In this document: piece after piece, positions 12,619 to 26,503 of the stretch
Layout of the letters: each line of letters starts with the position of its first letter
How positions within the stretch are numbered: position 1 is the first letter of the stretch
From: Pristiophorus japonicus
Lineage: Eukaryota
Length of the DNA: 64,000 nucleotides
Assembly (NCBI RefSeq): GCF_044704955.1
Contig: NC_091980.1
Coordinates: forward strand, 215,202,001-215,266,000
Direction of reading: 5' to 3'
Made by a program: the position numbers and the translations under genes
The notes under the pieces: generated by a model
The model's input: the letters and a program-made list of their open reading frames with translations, nothing else
What the model was told of the DNA's origin: nothing
Database searches by the model: none

Positions 12619-15501
12619 TTCATAGCCACTTAGGAGCAGTCCCGTGCAATAAATTTTTAAGCCGGTTCACGGACTCCCAGGCCGCCTGCAATTTCTGCGG
12701 TCTGGAAGAGTCCGTGTTCCATGTTTTTATTGAATGCACAAGGTTGCAGCCCCTGTTCCACTATTTGAAGGGGCTGCTCCTGAAATTCTGGCTGCACTTC
12801 AGTCCCACTCTCCTGATCTTTGGGCACCCTGTGCGGAGGGGAGCGGGTAGGTCCGAAGGCCTCCTCGTAGGACTGCTCCTGGGCACGGCCAAGGGTGCCA
12901 TCAGCCGGTCCAGGCAGCGGGCGGTCGAGGGGGTCGTTCAACCTGACTGCCTGCCTCTCTTCCGCTCTTACATCCGGTCCAGGGTGTCCTTGGAGATGGA
13001 GCACGCGGTGTCCACCGGTACGCTCGCGGCCTTCCGTGAGAGGTGGGCACCGGAGGGACTGGAGTGCATCATCACGCCCGGCAACCAAATTTTAATTTGA
13101 TTTTACGTTTTAAAGTTTAATTTGTTTTAATTGCCGGTGCTTTTAGTGTCCCCCTCCCCTTTTATAGGGGGCACTGGGAAAATTTGATTTTAGCGCCCCA
13201 AAAAAAAAAAAAAAAAAATAATTTAAAAAAAAAAGGGGCCTTGAAAATGTCTGCTGTGTCACCCAGGTCGGGTGGCATGGTCTTAATGTTTTATGTTTTG
13301 CAGGTAAACTCAAAAGAGTTTCATAGCCACTTAGGAGCAGTCCCGTGCAATAAATTTTTAAGCCGGTTCACGGACTCCCAGGCCGCCTGCAATTTCTGCG
13401 GTCTGGAAGAGTCCGTGTTCCATGTTTTTATTGAATGCACAAGGTTGCAGCCCCTGTTCCACTATTTGAAGGGGCTGCTCCTGAAATTCTGGCTGCACTT
13501 CAGTCCCACTCTCCTGATCTTTGGGCACCCTGTGCGGAGGGGAGCGGGTAGGTCCGAAGGCCTCCTCGTAGGACTGCTCCTGGGCACGGCCAAGGGTGCC
13601 ATCAGCCGGTCCAGGCAGCGGGCGGTCGAGGGGGTCGTTCAACCTGACTGCCTGCCTCTCTTCCGCTCTTACATCCGGTCCAGGGTGTCCTTGGAGATGG
13701 AGCACGCGGTGTCCACCGGTACGCTCGCGGCCTTCCGCGAGAGGTGGGCACCGGAGGGACTGGAGTGCATCATCACGCCCGGCAACCAAATTTTAATTTG
13801 ATTTTACGTTTTTTAAGTTTAATTTGTTTTAATTGCCGGTGCTTTTAGTGTCCCCCTTCCCTTTTATAGGGGGCACTGGGGAAAATTGTGATTTTAGTGC
13901 CCAAAAAAAAACCAAAAAAGAAAAACACAAAAAAAAACAAAAAAAAAAGGGGGGGGAAAAAAAAAGGGCCTTGTAAATGTCTGGAGTGTCACCCAGGTCG
14001 GGTGGCACCGTTTAATGTTTTTATGTTTTGCAGGTAAACTCAAAAGAGTTTCATAGCCACTTCGGAGCAGTCCCGTGCAATAAATTTTTAAGCCGGTTCA
14101 CGGGCTCCCAGGCCGCCTGCAATTTCTGCGGTCTGGAAGAGTCCATGTTCCATGTTTTTACCGAATGCACGAGGTTGCAGCCCCTGTTTTATTATTTAAA
14201 GGGGCTGCTCCTGAAATTCTGGCTGCTCTTCAGTCCCACACTCCTGATCTGTGGGCACCCTGTGCGGAGGGGAGCGGGTAGGTCCGAGGGCCTCCTTGTA
14301 GGACTGCTCCTGGGCACGGCCAAGGGTGCCATCAGCCGGTCCAGGCAGCGGGCGGTCGAGGGGGTCGTTCAACCTGACTGCCTGCCTCTCTTCCGCTCTT
14401 ACATCCGGTCCAGGGTGTCCTTGGAGATGGAGCACGCGGTGTCCACCGGTACGCTCGCGGCCTTCCGCGAGAGGTGGGCACCGGAGGGACTGGAGTGCAT
14501 CATCACGCCCGGCAACCAAATTTTAATTTGATTTTACGTTTTAAAGTTTAATTTGTTTTAATTGCCGGTGCTTTTAGTGTCCCCCTTCCCTTTATAGGGG
14601 GCACTGGGGAAAAATTGTGATTTTAGTGCCCCAAAAAAAAACCAAAAAAAAGAAAAACACAAAAAAAAAGGAAAAAACTTGTAAATGTCTGGTGTGTCAC
14701 CCAGTTCGGGTGGCACGGTTTAATGTTTTGTTTTACAGATAAACTCTAAAAGAGTTTCATAGCCACTTAGGAGCAGTCCCATGCAATAAATTTTTAAGCC
14801 GGTTCACGGGCTCCCAGGCCGCCTGCAATTTCTGCGGTCTGGAAGAGTCCGTGTTCCACATTTTTACCGAATGCACGAGGTTGCAGCCCCTGTTTTATTA
14901 TTTAAAGGGGCTGCTCCTGAAATTCTGGCTGCACTTCAGTCCCACACTCCTGATCTGTGGGCACCCTGTGCGGAGGGGAGCGGGTAGGTCCGAGGGCCTC
15001 CTTGTAGGACTGCTCCTGGGCACGGCCAAGGGTGCCATCAGCCGGTCCAGGCAGCGGGCGGTCGAGGGGGTCGTTCAACCTGACTGCCTACCTCTCTTCC
15101 GCGCGTACATCCACGCCAGGGTGTCCTTGGAGATGGAGCACGCGGTGTCCACCGGTACGCTCGCGGCCTTCCGCGAGAGGTGGGCACCGGAGGGACTGGA
15201 GTGCATCATCACGCCTGGCAACCAAATTTTAATTTGATTTTATGTTTTAAAGTTTAATTTGTTTTAATTGCCGGTGTTTTTAGTGTCCCCCTCCCCTTTT
15301 ATAGGGGGCACTTGAAGGAAAAAAATATGATTTTAGTGCCCCAAAAAAAACCTTTTTAAAAAAAAACAACAAAAAACCCCCCCAAAAAAAACCACAAAAA
15401 AAGGGCCTTGGAAATGTTTGGTGTGCCCCCCCAGATCGGGGGGACACGATTTAATGATTTAATGTTTTAATTTTCTCCCAAAAAAAATTCATAGCCACTT
15501 A
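12619..15501 (+). mobile_element. Tandem array of four Tx1-clade non-LTR retrotransposon 3' ends separated by a 13-14 bp direct repeat
   Basis: TTCATAGCCACTT at 12619, 13320, 14050, 14756 and 15488 (periods 701, 730, 706, 732). Each unit encodes GAVPCN...CNFCGLEESVFH.F.ECTRLQPL...FWLHFSP..., a CCHC zinc finger closely resembling the recalled C-terminus of Xenopus Tx1 ORF2p, followed by an A-rich 3'UTR. Confidence 0.9.
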
Positions 15502-20435: not shown

Positions 20436-22915
20436 AAGAACATAAGAAATAGGAGCAGGAGTAGGCCATACAGCCCCTCGAGCCTGCTCTGCCATTTTAT
20501 ACTATCTTGGCTGATCCGATCATGGACTCAGGTCCACTTCCCTGCCCGCTCCCCATAACCCCTTAGTCCCTTATCGGTTAAGAAACTGTCTATCTCTGTC
20601 TTAAATTTATTCAATGTCCCAGCTTCCACAACTCTCTGAGGTAATGAATTCCACAGATTTACAACCCTCTGAGAAAATACATTTTTCATCTCAGTTTTAA
20701 ATGGGCGGCCCCTTATTCTAAGATTATGCCCCCTAGTTCTAGTCTCCCCCATCAGTGGAAACATTCTCTCTGCATCCACCCTGTCAAACCACCTCATAAT
20801 CTTATACATTTTGATAAGATCACCTCTCAATTTTCTGAATTCCAATGAGTAGAGGCCCAACCTACTCAACCTTTCCTCATGGGTCAACCCCCTCATCTCT
20901 GGAATCAACCTCGTGAACTTACTCTGAACTGCCTCCAAAGCAAGTATATCCTTTCGTAAATACGGAAACCAAAACTGCATGCAGTATTCCAGATGTGGCC
21001 TCACCAATACCCTGTATAACTATAGCAAGACTTCCCTTTTTACTCCAACCCCTTTGCAACAAAGACCAAGATTCCATTGGCCTTCCTGATCACTTGCTAT
21101 ACCTGCATACTAACCTTTTGTGTTTCATGCACAAGTACCCCCAGGTCCCACTGTACTGCAGCACTTTGCAAACTTTCTCCATTTAAATAATAACTTGCTC
21201 TTTGATTTTTTCTGTCAAAGTGCATGACCTCACACTTTCCAACATTATACTCCATCTGCCAAATTTTTGCCCACTCACTTAGCCTGTCTATGTCCTTTTG
21301 CAGATTTTTTGTGTCCTTCTCACATTGCTTTTCCTCCCATCTTTGTATTGTCAGCAAACTTGGCTACGTTACACTGACTTCTTTCAAGTCGTTAATATAG
21401 ATTGTAAATAGTTGTGGTCCCAGCACTGACCCCTGCGGCATCCCACTAGTTACTGATTTCCAACCCGAGAATGAACGATTTATCCCGACTCTGTTTTCTG
21501 TTCATTAGCCAATCCTCTATCCATGCTAATATATTACCCCGAACCCCGTGAACTTTTATCTTGTGCAGTAATCTTTTATGTGGCACCTTGCCTTCTGGAA
21601 GTCCAAATACACCACATCCACTGGTTCCCCTTTATCCACCCTGTTTGTTGCATCCTCAAAGAATTCCCCTTTATACAGTCATGCTGACTCTGCCTGACCG
21701 AATTATGCTTTTCCAAATGTCCTGCTACTACTTCTTTAATAATGGACTCCAACATTTTCCCAACCACAGATGTTAGGCTAACTGGTCTATAATTTTCTGC
21801 TTTTTGGCTGCCTCCTTTTTTAAATAGGGGCCTTACATTTGCAGTTTTCCAATCTGCAGAATCCAGGGAATTTTGGTAAATTACAACCAGTGCATCCACT
21901 ATCCCTGCCGCTACTTCTCTTAAGACCCTAGATTGCAAGCCATCAGGTCCAGGGGAGTTATCTGCCTTTAGTCCCATTATCTTATTGAGTACCACCTCCT
22001 TAGTGATTGTGATTGTGTTAAGTTCCTCCCCCCCCTATAGCCCCTTGACTATCCACTGTTGGGATATTGTTAGTGTCCTCGACTGTAAAGACTGATACAA
22101 AATATTTCTTCAGAGTGTCTGCCATCTCCATGTTCCCCATTACTAATTCCCCGGTCTCATCCGCTAAGGGACCAACATTCACTTTAGCCATTCTTTTCCT
22201 TTTTAGATACCTATTGAAACTCTTGCTATCTGTTTTTATATTTTGTGCTAGTTTACTTTCATAGTCTATCTTCCCTTTCTTAATCATCTTTTTAGTCATT
22301 CTTTGCAGGCTTTTAAAAGCTTCCCAATCTTCTATCCTTCCACTAGTTTTGGCCACTTTGTATACCCTTGCTTTTAATTGGATACCGTTCTTTATTTCTT
22401 TAGTTAGCCACAGATAGCTATCTTTTCTCTTACACCCTTTCCTCCTCACTGGAATATATTTTTCTTGAGAGTTGTGAAATATCTCCTTAAATATACACCA
22501 CTGTTCATCAACCGTCCTACACTTTAATCTATTTTCCCAGTCCACTTTAGCCAACTCTGCCCTCATACCTTTATAGTCTCCTTTATTTAAGCTCAGTACA
22601 CTGGTTAGAGATCCAACTTTCTCACCCTCCATCTGAATTTGAAATTCAATCATACTATGATCACTCATTCGAAGGGTATCCTTTACTAGGACATTGTTTT
22701 CTGTCTCATTACACAGGACCAGATCCAAGATAGCCTGCCCCCTGGTTGGTTCAGTTACATACTGCTCAAGGAACCCATCCCTTATGCACGCTATGAACTC
22801 TTCCTCAAGGCTACCCTGACTAATTTGATTTGTCCAATCAATATGGAGGTTAAAATCACCCATGATTATTGCTGTTCCCTTTTTACAAGCCCCCAATATT
22901 TCCTGGTTTATGCTC
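20436..22915 (-). mobile_element. CR1 LINE (disrupted ORF2) inserted in the Harbinger Myb gene
   Basis: [29 protein letters not shown] and RPHLEYC motifs on the minus strand; (CTTATGTT)-type tail at 20436. Confidence 0.92.
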
Positions 22916-23255
22916 AGACCACCTGCAGACGATGGTGAACTCCCAGAGAGATCATGTGGATCCAGACCTCATGACGCTGGTCATGGGAAACATGGCAACT
23001 TCTATTGCAGCACAGGCAGAAGCAACTCAATGTCTTAGTGCTGTAATGCAGACAATGGTTGGTAGCATCGAAGCTCATACTGCTCTTATGCAGTCTCAGG
23101 TTGATGCCACACAACGTCTTGGTGCTGTCATGCAGTCAGTGAGTGCTGGCATCAAGTCTCAGACTGCTCTCATGCAGTCTCAGCTGGATGCCACACATGC
23201 TCTCACTGCTGCCATCACCGCTGGGTCCACCACAGTCCACCGAGGATCTCACGGT

Positions 23256-23578
23256 TTCATAGAAACATAGAAAATAGGTGCAAGAGTAGGCCATTCGGCC
23301 CTTCGAGCCTGCACCGCCATTCAATGAGTTCATGGCTGAACATGCAACTTCAGTACCCCATTCCTGCTTTCTCGCCATACCCCTTGATCCCCCTAGTAGT
23401 AAGGACTACATCTAACTCCTTTTTGAATATATTTAGTGAATTGGCCTCAACAACTTTCTGTGGTAGAGAATTCCACAGGTTCACCACTCTCTGGGTGAAG
23501 AAACTTCTCCTCATCTCGGTCCTAAATGGCTTACCCTTTATCTTTAGACTGTGGCTTACCCCTTATCCTTAGACTATG
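23256..23578 (-). mobile_element. CR1 3' end (unedited)
   Basis: catagaaacatagaaaataggtgca... tail followed by ORF2 3' sequence. Confidence 0.9.
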
Positions 23579-23915
23579 CCTAAGAAAGGCAGAGAGAAAT
23601 TTGTCCATGATCTACATAGCACTCATCCTGGTATTGTCATGATGAAAGCCATTGCCAGGTCTCATGTATGATGACCTGGAATTGACTCTGATCTGGAATC
23701 ATGTGTGCATCAGTGCAACACTTGCATGCAGCTAATTAAAGCATCAGCGAAATCGCCGCTGAGTCTGTGATCGTGGCCATCTAAACCATGGTCCAGGATC
23801 CACATTGACTTTGCAGGTCTCTTCCTGGGAAAGATGTTTTTAGTTGTGGTGGATGCATATTCCAAGTGGATATGGTGTATAATCATGTCATCCAGTACAT
23901 CCACAGCTACCATTG
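23579..23915 (+). mobile_element. Isolated Gypsy integrase fragment (HHCC zinc-binding region and core start)
   Basis: Reads LHSTHPGIVMMKAIARSHV...DLESCVHQCNTC...PWSRIHIDFAG...FLVVVDAYSKW, homologous to ORF 54491-55495; no LTRs nearby. Confidence 0.85.
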
Positions 23916-24786
23916 AAACATAGAAAATAGGTGCAGGAGTAGGCCATTCGGCTCCTCAAGCCCGTACTGCCATTCAACGAGTTCATGGCCGAACATGCAA
24001 CTCCAGCACCCCACTCCCGCTCCCCCACCACACCCCCCAATCCTCCCAGTAGCGAGGACCACATCTAACTCCTTCCCGAACACATTTAGTGAATTGGCCT
24101 CAACAATGTTCCGTGGTAGAGAATTCCACAGGTCCACCACCCCCCGGGCGAAGAAGTTTCCCCCCATCTCGGCCCCAAATGGCCCACCCCCATCCCTAGA
24201 CCGTGACCCCCGGTCCCGGACCCCCCTAACACCAGGAACATCCCTCCCGCATCCAACCTGTCCAAACCCGGCAGAACCCTAAACATTTCCATGAGATCCC
24301 CTCTCACTCCTCCGAACTCCACCGAATACAAGCCCAGTCGATTCAGCCCCCCCCCCCCCTCCCCCGGACACGTCAGTCCCGCCATCCCGGGAATCAGTCC
24401 GGTGAACCCTCGCTGTACCCTCTCAACAGCAAGAATGTCCCCCCTCAAGTCAGGAGACCAAAACTGCACACAACACTCCAGGCACGGCCTCACCAAGGCC
24501 CTGCACAACCGCAGCAACACCTCCCCACCCCTGCACTCAAATCCCCCCGCCATGAAGGCTGACACGCCACCCGCCCTCCCACCGCCTGCCGTACCTGCAT
24601 GCCAACCCCCAATGACCGATGTACCATGACACCCAGGTCTCTTTGCATCTCCCCTTTTCCTAATCTGTCACCATTCAGATAATAGTCTGTCTCTCTGTTT
24701 TTACCACCAAATTGGATAACCTCACATTTATCCACATTATACTTCATCTGCCATGCATTTGCCCACTCACCTAACCTATCCAAGTT
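23916..24786 (-). mobile_element. CR1 3' fragment with an A>G hypermutated block (~23950-24617)
   Basis: Colinear with 23263-23550 and other CR1 copies but dense in T>C on the + strand; the translated ORF is Gly/Arg-enriched (GGFECRGGEVLLRLCRALVRPCLECC). Confidence 0.9.
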
Positions 24787-25318
24787 CGCAGCAGCCCACC
24801 AAACTGTGCTCCAGCAAATTGTTGGGGATGTTGAGGTGCTGCCCCGGGGGAGTGGCACTGGGTCAGTGGAGCAGGAACCTGCTGTCCTTTCTCAGTATGA
24901 CAGCTATCCAGATCCCACCACTGCCACTCCGCCATTGCACTTGTCGCTGGCCGTCATCCAGCCAGCCCAGACTGCCGCTGCCCAGCCTGAGGTGGTGGAG
25001 TCTACAGCCGAGCCTTCCAGGCCCAGAGCTGGTCGAAGGTGTCCTGCAAGGCCTTCTGTAGTATCTGGCCCTGACACGCAGCAGTCTTCCACCAGCCGTG
25101 CCTCAGCGGAGGAACGCTAGACTAGTTAAAGCAAAAAGGGGATATAAGGAAATGCACAAAGGTGATTAGTAAATATATTATGTTGTTCTGATATAAATTT
25201 GGATTGGAATTTTTAATCTTTGCTGTTGTCTCTCATTTCAGTTTTGGGGCTTTGGAATGGAAGGGAAAATGGATGTGGTCATAGGGACGTCCAAAGGAAC
25301 CGGGAAGTGGGATGGAAT

Positions 25319-26503
25319 TCACTGGAACCGAACTCTGATGAGACGGTCGCGGACCTCCCCTGCAGAATCGCAATAGGCTCGCTGCCTCCTCCATCGCTGC
25401 TGCTCCTGCTCCTCTTCCTCCTCCTCCTCAGGTGATGCAGTTATGCCTGGTGGCAATGGCTGTGCCCTCATGATGGTGAGGTTGTGCAGCATGCAGCAGA
25501 TGACGACGAATAGGGACACCCGCTCAGGCGAGTACTGGAGGACTTCTTCCAAGCAGTCAAGGCAGCGGAACCATTGCTTTAGCACTCCGATGGTCTGCTC
25601 AATGATGTTCCTGGTGGTGGCATAGCTCTCACTGTAGGAGTGCTGGGCAAGACTGTTGGGGTAATGGAGGGGTGTCATGAGCCAGGGGGACAGTGGATAA
25701 CCCTTGTTTCCAGTCGCGAGCTTGATGTGGTGATTGAAACAGAGCTGGCACACCGGTCTGGCACAGGATGAAGGCATCATGGCTGCTGCCAGGATAGCGG
25801 GCATTGACTGTGAGGATGCTGCGTGTGTGGTTGCGGACCAGCTACACATTCAGTGAGTGGAAGCCTTTGTGGTTATGGAAAACCTCAGAATTGTGATGCA
25901 GTGCCCGCAAAGCAGTCAATGGCACCCTGCACCATGGGGATGCCCACTATCCAAGCAAAACCACATGCATGCTTGTACTGCTTCTCTCTGGTCATGAGGA
26001 AGGAGATGTAGTCCCTCTGTACAAAGCATCTGTGATTTCACGGATGGAGCAATGGATGCCAAACCGGGAGATGTTGGCGATGTCTCCTGTCGCTCCATGG
26101 AAGAATCCATTGGCATAGAAATTAAGCGCAATGGTGACCTTGACTGCCACTGAGAGAACTGTCCATATCCTGGTCTGAGTCTCGAGGTCTGGTTGCAGAA
26201 GATGGCAGAGCTCTGTGACCATGCTGAAGCGCAGCCTTCGAACACAATGTTCCTCAGTGAAATTGATGTAGGAGAACTACTGCTGGAATACCCTGGGAGG
26301 ATAAGGTCTCTTATTGCCAGCCCTCTTGGGCATTCTCTCTCTCTCCATATTTTGCTACCTTTTTTCCCTGTGCTTCTCCGTCTTTCTCCCTGTGCTTCTC
26401 ATTGTCTTGCCCCATGTCCTTCTCCCTGCCTTTGTCTCTGCTTTTGTCTCTGTCTTTGCCTTCGCCTAAGTATCCTCCGGTCGAGTACTAACACAGCCCC
26501 CAT
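25319..26503 (-). pseudogene. Harbinger transposase (HARBI1-like DDE nuclease), disrupted
   Basis: ATG at 26503; motifs KVTIALNFYANG, QGAIDC, KGFHSLNV, YPGSSHDAFIL, GNKGYPLSPWLMTP, TRNIIEQTIGVLKQWFRCL and CCMLHNL; stops and frameshifts. Confidence 0.9.

What the first reader, a model, noticed from the sequence alone, without database searches (positions are those of the whole stretch)
23950..24617. Genomic fossil of an A-to-I hyperedited RNA: strand-specific A>G block in a CR1 copy
Seen: against the neighbouring copy at 23293-23430, the first ~140 bp differ by about 22 T>C changes on + (A>G on the CR1 sense strand) versus about 8 other changes (counted by eye). An example is ccccattcctgctttctcgccataccccttgat becoming ccccactcccgctcccccaccacaccccccaat. 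The bias runs ~670 bp and stops abruptly near 24617, after which the sequence looks normal. Established: ADARs deaminate many adenosines in long dsRNA and RT reads inosine as G; APOBEC editing or CpG decay would give the opposite direction. Inference: an edited duplex region of a transcript was retrotransposed and fixed in the germline, giving direct evidence of ADAR acting on a LINE template.
Basis: partly seen in the sequence, partly recalled or inferred. Interest (0 to 1): 0.8.

Follow-up and report, generated by a model that had tools for sequence, protein, structure and literature searches.

The report
Inherited RNA-editing scar with source found
Half the adenines on one strand of this jumping-gene fragment have become guanines while its unedited source copy still sits 717 kb away, likely because the enzyme ADAR edited a folded-back RNA that was then copied into heritable DNA, and at least 31 other independently scarred copies show that this happened repeatedly.

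Summary
Confirmed and extended. The block (23955-24627) lies in a 1,528-bp insertion: LINE 3' end A + Gypsy fragment + LINE piece B. I found its unedited source 717 kb away, with the same junctions. Against it, 104 of 197 T became C (A>G on the LINE sense strand) versus 4 of 159 A>G. The other 854 bp hold 0 derived T>C. Neighbour preference is ADAR-like (5'G depleted, 3'G enriched). The source has inverted LINE copies on both sides; the upstream one ends near where editing stops. The template was likely a read-through RNA primed at the unedited tail A, not the LINE's own mRNA. The scar was recopied into an 846-bp daughter and a 2.1-kb daughter amplified to 13 copies. Of 35 targeted copy groups, 32 carry independent scars; 0 of 69 randomly sampled LINE pieces do (roughly 0.1% of copies). 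A mirror-strand control found a second source-copy pair with both hairpin arms edited and the loop spared. ADAR is inferred, not assayed. Nine paper searches found no report for LINEs in germline DNA. This scan noted the phenomenon before: 10 findings in at least 6 genomes, 4 in this one.

The parts
23955..24627 (-). Hyperedited block: about 52% of sense-strand A changed to G, inside the 3' coding end of LINE ORF2
   Evidence: 98 of 189 reference A sites edited in window or array majority; 92 derived T>C when polarised by outgroups; 78 codons with A>G, 66 non-synonymous, of 258 compared
23911..24785 (-). LINE piece B (CR1-type, label recalled), 875 bp, 5'-truncated at 24785; tail 23911-23954 and 5' part 24628-24785 unedited
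   Evidence: Source copy continues about 2.1 kb further 5' with endonuclease and reverse-transcriptase frames on the same strand; 0 of 7 tail sites and 0 of 45 5' sites edited
23576..23910 (.). 335-bp fragment of a Gypsy-type LTR retrotransposon carried along from the source locus; unedited
   Evidence: Same junctions in source L045, where the element continues (RT_RNaseH and rve Pfam hits in the flanking frames); 0 derived T>C
23258..23575 (-). LINE 3' end A with tail repeat: the unedited 3' end of the whole insertion and the likely priming site
   Evidence: 98% identical to the subfamily reference with 1 A>G; 0 derived T>C in 318 columns; all three insertion events of this lineage end at this tail
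22914..23257 (+). Left part of the interrupted host repeat (Harbinger-like DNA transposon)
   Evidence: 10 of 11 related loci printed show the uninterrupted site joining 23257 to 24786, with at most a 2-nt duplication
24786..25357 (+). Right part of the host repeat; these 572 bp were carried into the 2.1-kb daughter copy
   Evidence: 12 of 13 daughter copies match 23258 to 25356/25357 and one to 25312, at about 96%; DDE_Tnp_4 hit at 25322-25849, E 3e-14
24346..24366 (+). C-run created where editing turned a T-rich hexamer into C, later lengthened by 9-12 nt
   Evidence: Alignment of source, window and four daughters

Best explanation
This is a 1.5-kb copy of an unedited source locus 717 kb away, in which half the adenines of one 673-bp stretch read as guanine, likely because ADAR hyperedited a double-stranded part of a read-through RNA that LINE reverse transcriptase then likely copied into germline DNA. 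Shown: the source (LINE B, Gypsy fragment, LINE end A, in that order) and its two flanking inverted LINE copies; the one-strand A>G block; the clean insertion into a DNA transposon; the later daughter copies. Inferred: a long transcript ran through the upstream inverted copy and the source; piece B paired with that copy; ADAR deaminated about 52% of the paired A; tail A stayed unpaired and unedited and was used for target-primed reverse transcription; inosine was read as G; the copy was cut short at 24785. New CpGs then partly decayed, and the locus was itself transcribed and recopied at least twice. The block has no function that I can detect: it is a dead fragment and a record of the event.
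For: Source with identical junctions, 29 of 641 differences in the unedited part. 92 derived T>C in the block, 0 in the other 854 columns. Context in the window: edited fraction by 5' neighbour U 22/31, A 28/49, C 27/49, G 19/60 (p 5e-4); 3' G 44/68 (p 0.006). In 17 other copies chosen on one triple, with that site left out: 5' G 281/1532, 5' U 458/838, UAG highest (0.65), GAU lowest (0.10). This matches the ADAR motif in PMC5625713 (passages read). The upstream inverted copy (89%, 736 bp) stops matching at about 24643-24654, close to the last edit; a downstream partner would predict 9 edits at 18 further sites and 0 are seen (P 1e-6). Second pair: L178 versus its source L207 has T>C at 28 of 116 and 30 of 101 T in the two arms of a 70%-identical inverted repeat, and 7 of 307 elsewhere, both arms on the same strand. 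Strand control: sense-strand triple 32 matches per 83,572 unedited sites; mirror triple 1 per 98,175, and that one is the hairpin. Four TG sites read CA in both window and array, as expected for TG>CG then CpG decay. The genome has A_deamin matches at 6 loci.
Against: No RNA was observed: transcription across the source and present-day editing are untested. The choice of the upstream partner is post hoc, and editing follows its local mismatches only weakly (56/108, 34/59, 8/22 edited against 55, 31, 12 expected). The downstream copy would form the more stable duplex (-1488 versus -1219 kcal/mol). The 7 tail sites of piece B are unedited although both partners cover them (P 0.002). Tail A could also pair with the upstream copy (-449 kcal/mol), so its sparing rests on competition that I did not model. 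Insertion sites lack a clear target-site duplication. Which deaminase acted is not shown; the 6 loci were not assigned to ADAR1, ADAR2, ADAD or ADAT.
Confidence: 0.9

Rival explanations
1. Same editing and copying, but the duplex partner was the downstream inverted copy, a more distant copy or a separate antisense RNA, and priming at tail A was internal or followed RNA cleavage.
For: The downstream copy is closer (2.7 kb) and more similar (96%, 767 bp), and it would leave the Gypsy piece and tail A in the loop. A third inverted copy (87%) lies 20.8 kb downstream.
Against: It covers 18 further A sites, none edited (P 1e-6). The third copy ends at about 24599, short of the edits at 24608-24627. 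Only 130 kb around the source was examined.
Confidence: 0.2
2. Error-prone DNA synthesis (reverse transcription under skewed dNTP pools, or a polymerase-eta-type tract) made the one-strand A>G cluster without RNA editing.
For: Such processes are strand-specific and can favour W-A sites (recalled, not from a call); 5' U and A are the best contexts here.
Against: Source T became C 103 times and G twice, never A. The rate is about 50% inside a sharp block and 0 in the rest of the same cDNA. In L178 the changes sit in both hairpin arms and spare the loop, which needs RNA structure.
Confidence: 0.04
3. An adenosine deaminase acted on DNA: the DNA strand of an RNA:DNA hybrid or a single-stranded second-strand intermediate during insertion.
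For: It would give the same letters and could keep the ADAR context; ADAR activity on RNA:DNA hybrids is recalled, not tested here.
Against: A hybrid would span the whole cDNA, yet the 697 bp nearest the priming end and the last 157 bp are clean. Deaminating the first-strand cDNA would give sense-strand T>C, which is near zero.
Confidence: 0.04
4. The block is an ordinary GC-rich or CpG-rich subfamily segment, or an assembly artefact.
For: 13 contigs' copies share the same Cs.
Against: Those 13 are descendants: they share the composite junctions and the window's right flank. CA>CG is 2 of 51 against TG>CG 29 of 51. Other scarred copies have different site sets. Run contigs carry the Cs.
Confidence: 0.01

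Closest known systems
APOBEC 'DNA-edited' retroelements fixed in vertebrate genomes (PMC4866542, LTR elements; PMC3880073, lizard L1; PMC2873906; passages read)
   Same: A host deaminase leaves a one-strand cluster during retrotransposition; the copy is inherited; parent and child can be paired; a small share of copies is hit (0.26% of lizard L1 in PMC3880073, roughly 0.1% here).
   Different: Opposite change (sense A>G, not G>A), RNA duplex rather than cDNA as the likely substrate, block limits set by inverted repeats. PMC4866542 reports other cluster types 1,680-fold rarer in its LTR screen; the word ADAR occurs 0 times in its main text.
ADAR-type A>G hypermutation recorded in retroviral DNA: RAV-1, avian leukosis virus, HTLV-2/STLV-3 (as cited in PMC8586724, passage read; originals not read); three bovine leukemia proviruses (PMC8025556, passages read)
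   Same: Edited RNA is read as G by reverse transcriptase and ends up in integrated DNA.
   Different: Those are infectious retroviruses in culture or somatic cells, with about 70-bp clusters in BLV. Here it is a non-LTR element, 100-300 edits, inherited, recopied and amplified. PMC12548423 considered ADAR for one endogenous mouse provirus and found the context did not fit.
ADAR hyper-editing of inverted repeats in RNA (PMC5625713, passages read)
   Same: 5' G depletion, 3' G preference in most vertebrates, need for a nearby inverted copy of 65% identity or more; elephant shark brain RNA is in its table.
   Different: There the edits are transient and in RNA only; here they are in DNA.
ADAR1 restriction of human L1 (PMC5224506, passages read)
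   Same: ADAR meets LINE RNA.
   Different: That study found no editing in more than 2.5 kb of ectopic L1 RNA and an editing-independent effect. Here edited RNA was evidently still copied, when the repeat lay in a fold-back context.

Membership tests
ADAR A-to-I hyper-editing | Clustered A>G on one RNA strand only | tested here: met
   104 of 197 versus 4 of 159
ADAR A-to-I hyper-editing | G depleted 5' of edited A; G favoured 3' in most vertebrates | tested here: met
   motif from PMC5625713
ADAR A-to-I hyper-editing | Edits confined to a double-stranded region | tested here: met
   Clear for L178/L207; for the window the distal limit fits the upstream copy but the partner is chosen post hoc and the tail end is unexplained
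ADAR A-to-I hyper-editing | Host encodes an ADAR | tested here: inconclusive
   A_deamin matches at 6 loci, not assigned to genes
ADAR A-to-I hyper-editing | Inosine in RNA and dependence on ADAR catalysis | not testable with these tools
   Needs RNA reads with matched DNA, or an assay
LINE-mediated retrocopy (target-primed reverse transcription) | 3' end at a LINE tail, 5' truncation, source elsewhere, empty site in related copies | tested here: met
LINE-mediated retrocopy (target-primed reverse transcription) | Target-site duplication | tested here: inconclusive
   At most 2 nt at the window, a few shared bases at L046, a small deletion at the array site; short or absent duplications in CR1 are recalled
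CR1 clade LINE | Endonuclease plus reverse transcriptase in ORF2, short 3' UTR, microsatellite tail | tested here: met
   RVT_1 E 8e-21, Exo_endo_phos_2 E 3e-5 (below cut-off) in the source; the frame ends about 90 nt before the tail
CR1 clade LINE | Placement in the CR1 clade by reverse-transcriptase tree | not tested
APOBEC DNA-edited retroelement | Sense-strand G>A clusters | tested here: not met
   Sense-strand A>G 94, G>A 11

The most novel reading that the evidence does not exclude
ADAR plus LINE reverse transcriptase form a recurrent route that writes RNA edits into the germline of this vertebrate: it acts on long read-through nuclear RNAs, needs an unedited 3' tail, and can reinsert them close to where they were made. 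Two of the hops here landed 717 kb and 392 kb from their source in a 5.9-Gb genome, which would point to copying of chromatin-tethered RNA in cis. The scars would then map ancient germline dsRNA and ADAR specificity, and seed sequence that is amplified further, here inside an immunoglobulin-domain gene array.
Probability: 0.3. Interest if true: 0.9.

Novelty: new variant of a known kind. Interest (0 to 1): 0.76.

Why it matters
RNA editing is treated as transient, and genome screens for edited retroelements have reported the APOBEC G>A type. This locus gives the whole chain in DNA: unedited source, inverted partners, edited copy, daughter copies, a strand control and a second pair with both arms edited. 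It shows that inosine-rich RNA can be reverse-transcribed through about 100 edits and inherited, and that ADAR does not always block retrotransposition. Each scar records an RNA that was transcribed and double-stranded in germline cells, so ADAR activity, specificity and duplex reach (3.4 kb loops, 70% identity) become testable from assemblies alone. It also warns RNA-editing studies that edited-looking reads may come from genomic copies. The size of the effect is modest: roughly 0.1% of copies of this subfamily, with no function shown.

Tried and rejected
GC-rich subfamily, CpG-rich ancestor and assembly error: rejected. I first read the high T>C share among loci L015-L030 as common editing; these were picked by likeness to the edited query, and the random sample corrected this: 60 stretches of 10 kb gave 89 LINE pieces of 150 bp or more, 69 could be scored, 0 had an A>G cluster. 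L046 as a sibling from the same RNA molecule: not favoured, since window-L046 (16/640) is well below source-window (29/641). Local reinsertion as a general rule: the second pair is on different chromosomes (C8 and C16), so it is 1 of 2 lineages. The downstream inverted copy as partner: disfavoured. Folding of the 110-nt tails gave no consistent structure to interpret. No RNA holder was listed among 24 runs; this is no evidence on expression. Runs X5-X7 have no kind on record and little cover of the block, so I drew nothing from them. The open frames across the block have no Pfam match (193-aa frame). Whether related species carry the insertion remains open. Paper searches: 9 completed, seen as listings and abstract starts; passages read in PMC4866542, PMC5224506, PMC3880073, PMC5625713, PMC2873906, PMC8586724, PMC12548423, PMC3820591 (nothing relevant) and PMC8025556. 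No supplements were read; those of PMC4866542 may list A>G clusters. Carmi et al. 2011 and the 1994-1995 avian papers were not read. Most subscription papers are outside the library.

Full report
Observation. Against the closest other window copy the 875-bp LINE piece shows 99 T>C, 10 C>T, 10 G>A, 6 A>G and 11 transversions. GC rises from about 45% to 60-63% over 24000-24600. The LINE's coding strand is the minus strand, so the change is A>G on its RNA. The genome is 5.9 Gb; that it is shark-like is my inference.

Anatomy and source. The block is part of one insertion, 23258-24785: LINE end A (318 bp), a Gypsy-type fragment (335 bp) and LINE piece B (875 bp). It interrupts a Harbinger-like repeat; 10 of 11 related loci printed show the empty site with at most 2 duplicated bases. 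A search with the junction piece found L045 (C4:214,506,435-214,507,954), 717 kb away: same junctions, no edits, with LINE B and the Gypsy element continuing beyond the copied part. This is the source. It differs from the window at 29 of 641 sites in the unedited part. In the block, 104 of 197 source T are C and 4 of 159 A are G. Polarised with outgroup copies, the window lineage has 92 derived T>C in 661 block columns and 0 in the other 854.

Signature. On the RNA strand the edited share by 5' neighbour is U 22/31, A 28/49, C 27/49, G 19/60 (p 5e-4), and 3' G is favoured, 44/68 (p 0.006). Seventeen other copies, chosen on a single triple that was then left out, give the same order, with UAG highest and GAU lowest. 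This is the ADAR motif as described in PMC5625713 (passages). A CpG-rich ancestor is excluded: TG>CG 29 of 51, CA>CG 2 of 51, and T before other bases 72 of 142. Four TG sites read CA in both window and daughters, as expected if the new CpGs decayed in DNA.

Duplex. The source has an inverted copy upstream (89%, 736 bp, loop 3.4 kb), one downstream (96%, 767 bp, loop 2.7 kb) and one 20.8 kb downstream (87%) within the 130 kb examined. Editing ends at 24627. The upstream copy stops matching at about 24643-24654; only 2 poor-context sites lie before 24643. The downstream copy runs to 24687 and would cover 18 sites with 9 edits expected and 0 seen (P 1e-6). So the upstream copy fits best, and it allows an RNA that ends at tail A. 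Against this: the choice is post hoc, the downstream duplex is stronger, editing follows the upstream mismatches only weakly, and 7 tail sites of piece B are unedited though paired (P 0.002).

Daughters. L046 (C4:214,833,433-214,834,278; 846 bp; 392 kb from the window) ends at the same tail, sits in another repeat and shares 22 of 23 edits in its overlap. Thirteen copies on 9 small contigs carry the unit plus about 570 bp of the window's right flank, so their founder was copied from this locus; L002 shares 95 of 97 edits. Four of them compared over 20 kb share kilobases of flank at 94-99%, so they arose by segmental amplification. Distances give the order source, window, L046, array founder, amplification: 29/641, 16/640, 7-11/641, 2-8/641. 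The scar is therefore inherited DNA. Contigs of run X1 also carry the Cs, though X1 may be the assembly's own sample.

How common. An exact search for one edited triple gave 32 matches, 13 of them daughters, against 83,572 unedited sites; 18 of the other 19 have 25-315 A>G and 0-7 T>C. A second triple gave 15 matches, 11 outside the array, with 12-135 A>G and 0-6 T>C. All targeted loci together (47, array left out) form 35 groups; 32 have 20 or more A>G and a threefold excess; pairwise overlap of edit sets has median 0.23, so the events are independent. In 60 randomly placed 10-kb stretches, 0 of 69 scorable pieces had a cluster. A capture-recapture sum by hand (19, 11 and 3 lineages) gives about 60, probably too low: of the order of 0.1% of this subfamily. 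Edits are scarce in the first 100 nt from the tail (19 of 373 and 18 of 242 sites, against about 40% further in). This suggests that the tail must stay readable, but the selection sites bias the profile.

Control turned test. The mirror-strand triple gave 1 match per 98,175 unedited sites. That locus, L178 on C16, is a copy of L207 on C8 (1,931 bp, 92.9%), which holds a 70%-identical inverted repeat. T>C falls at 28 of 116 and 30 of 101 T in the two arms and 7 of 307 elsewhere, both arms on one strand, loop and tail spared. Only editing of a folded RNA explains this simply.

Mechanism. Shown: source, partners, block, empty site, daughters. Inferred: read-through transcription, pairing, ADAR action, priming at tail A, reading of inosine as G. 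Confidence 0.9 for ADAR-edited RNA copied by LINE machinery; the partner is less sure. The edits change 66 of 78 affected codons at the end of ORF2, but the fragment was dead anyway. Two hops within 0.7 Mb of their source are very unlikely for random insertion in 5.9 Gb (about 1e-7 by simple arithmetic); the second pair is not local, so this stays a lead.

What is known. APOBEC G>A scars in retroelements are established (PMC4866542, PMC3880073, PMC2873906; passages). ADAR-type A>G is reported in retroviral and somatic proviral DNA (PMC8586724, PMC8025556). One endogenous provirus was considered and did not fit the motif (PMC12548423). Ectopic human L1 RNA was found unedited (PMC5224506). Nine searches listed no report of ADAR-edited LINE copies in germline DNA; the library lacks most subscription papers and I read no supplements. 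This scan's own notes describe the same kind of thing in 10 findings from at least 6 genomes and in 4 notes on this genome; they are unchecked and I met them after reaching my reading.

Verdict. Real, inherited and recurrent; a new variant of a known kind, with an unusually complete chain of evidence. Interest 0.76.

Noticed in passing
L161:5953-6423 (-), contig C2571, about 3.7 kb from a daughter copy: The amplified unit that carries the 13 daughters holds an immunoglobulin V-set exon with a J-like end in one frame (Pfam V-set E 6e-14). It looks like a multi-copy, germline-joined VJ-type receptor gene; units recur about 270-330 kb apart on small contigs.
   Followed up: partly
L178 (C16:98,796,015-98,799,036), L207 (C8), L208 (C2): Retrocopied hairpin with both arms edited; L207 is the unedited source; L208 is an older relative of the middle part.
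   Followed up: yes
L019/L136 (C29), L171 (C8), L177 (C29): Very heavily edited copies: 325, 253 and 202 A>G over about 2.1 kb.
   Followed up: partly
L132/L133 (C8:188,663,255 and 188,664,590); L188/L189 (C62, C1361): Edited copies duplicated after insertion: a tandem unit about 1.3 kb long, and a near-identical pair on two small contigs.
   Followed up: no
C4:214,479,827-214,480,008: A 182-bp LINE end 27 kb from the source, 95.6% like it, is cut at about the same position (window 24096) as daughter L046; possibly a truncation hot spot.
   Followed up: no
window 23524-23575: The 5' end of LINE piece A carries a short duplicated stretch that the source and all daughters share.
   Followed up: no
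window 12619-15501: Tandem array with a unit of about 700-730 bp at 88-92% identity.
   Followed up: no
C2898:192,444-195,957: Satellite with a 52-55-bp period inside the amplified unit.
   Followed up: no
random sample L067-L126: In unedited LINE copies sense-strand G>A (813) is about twice C>T (388), and A>G (337) exceeds T>C (214); partly base composition, not examined.
   Followed up: no
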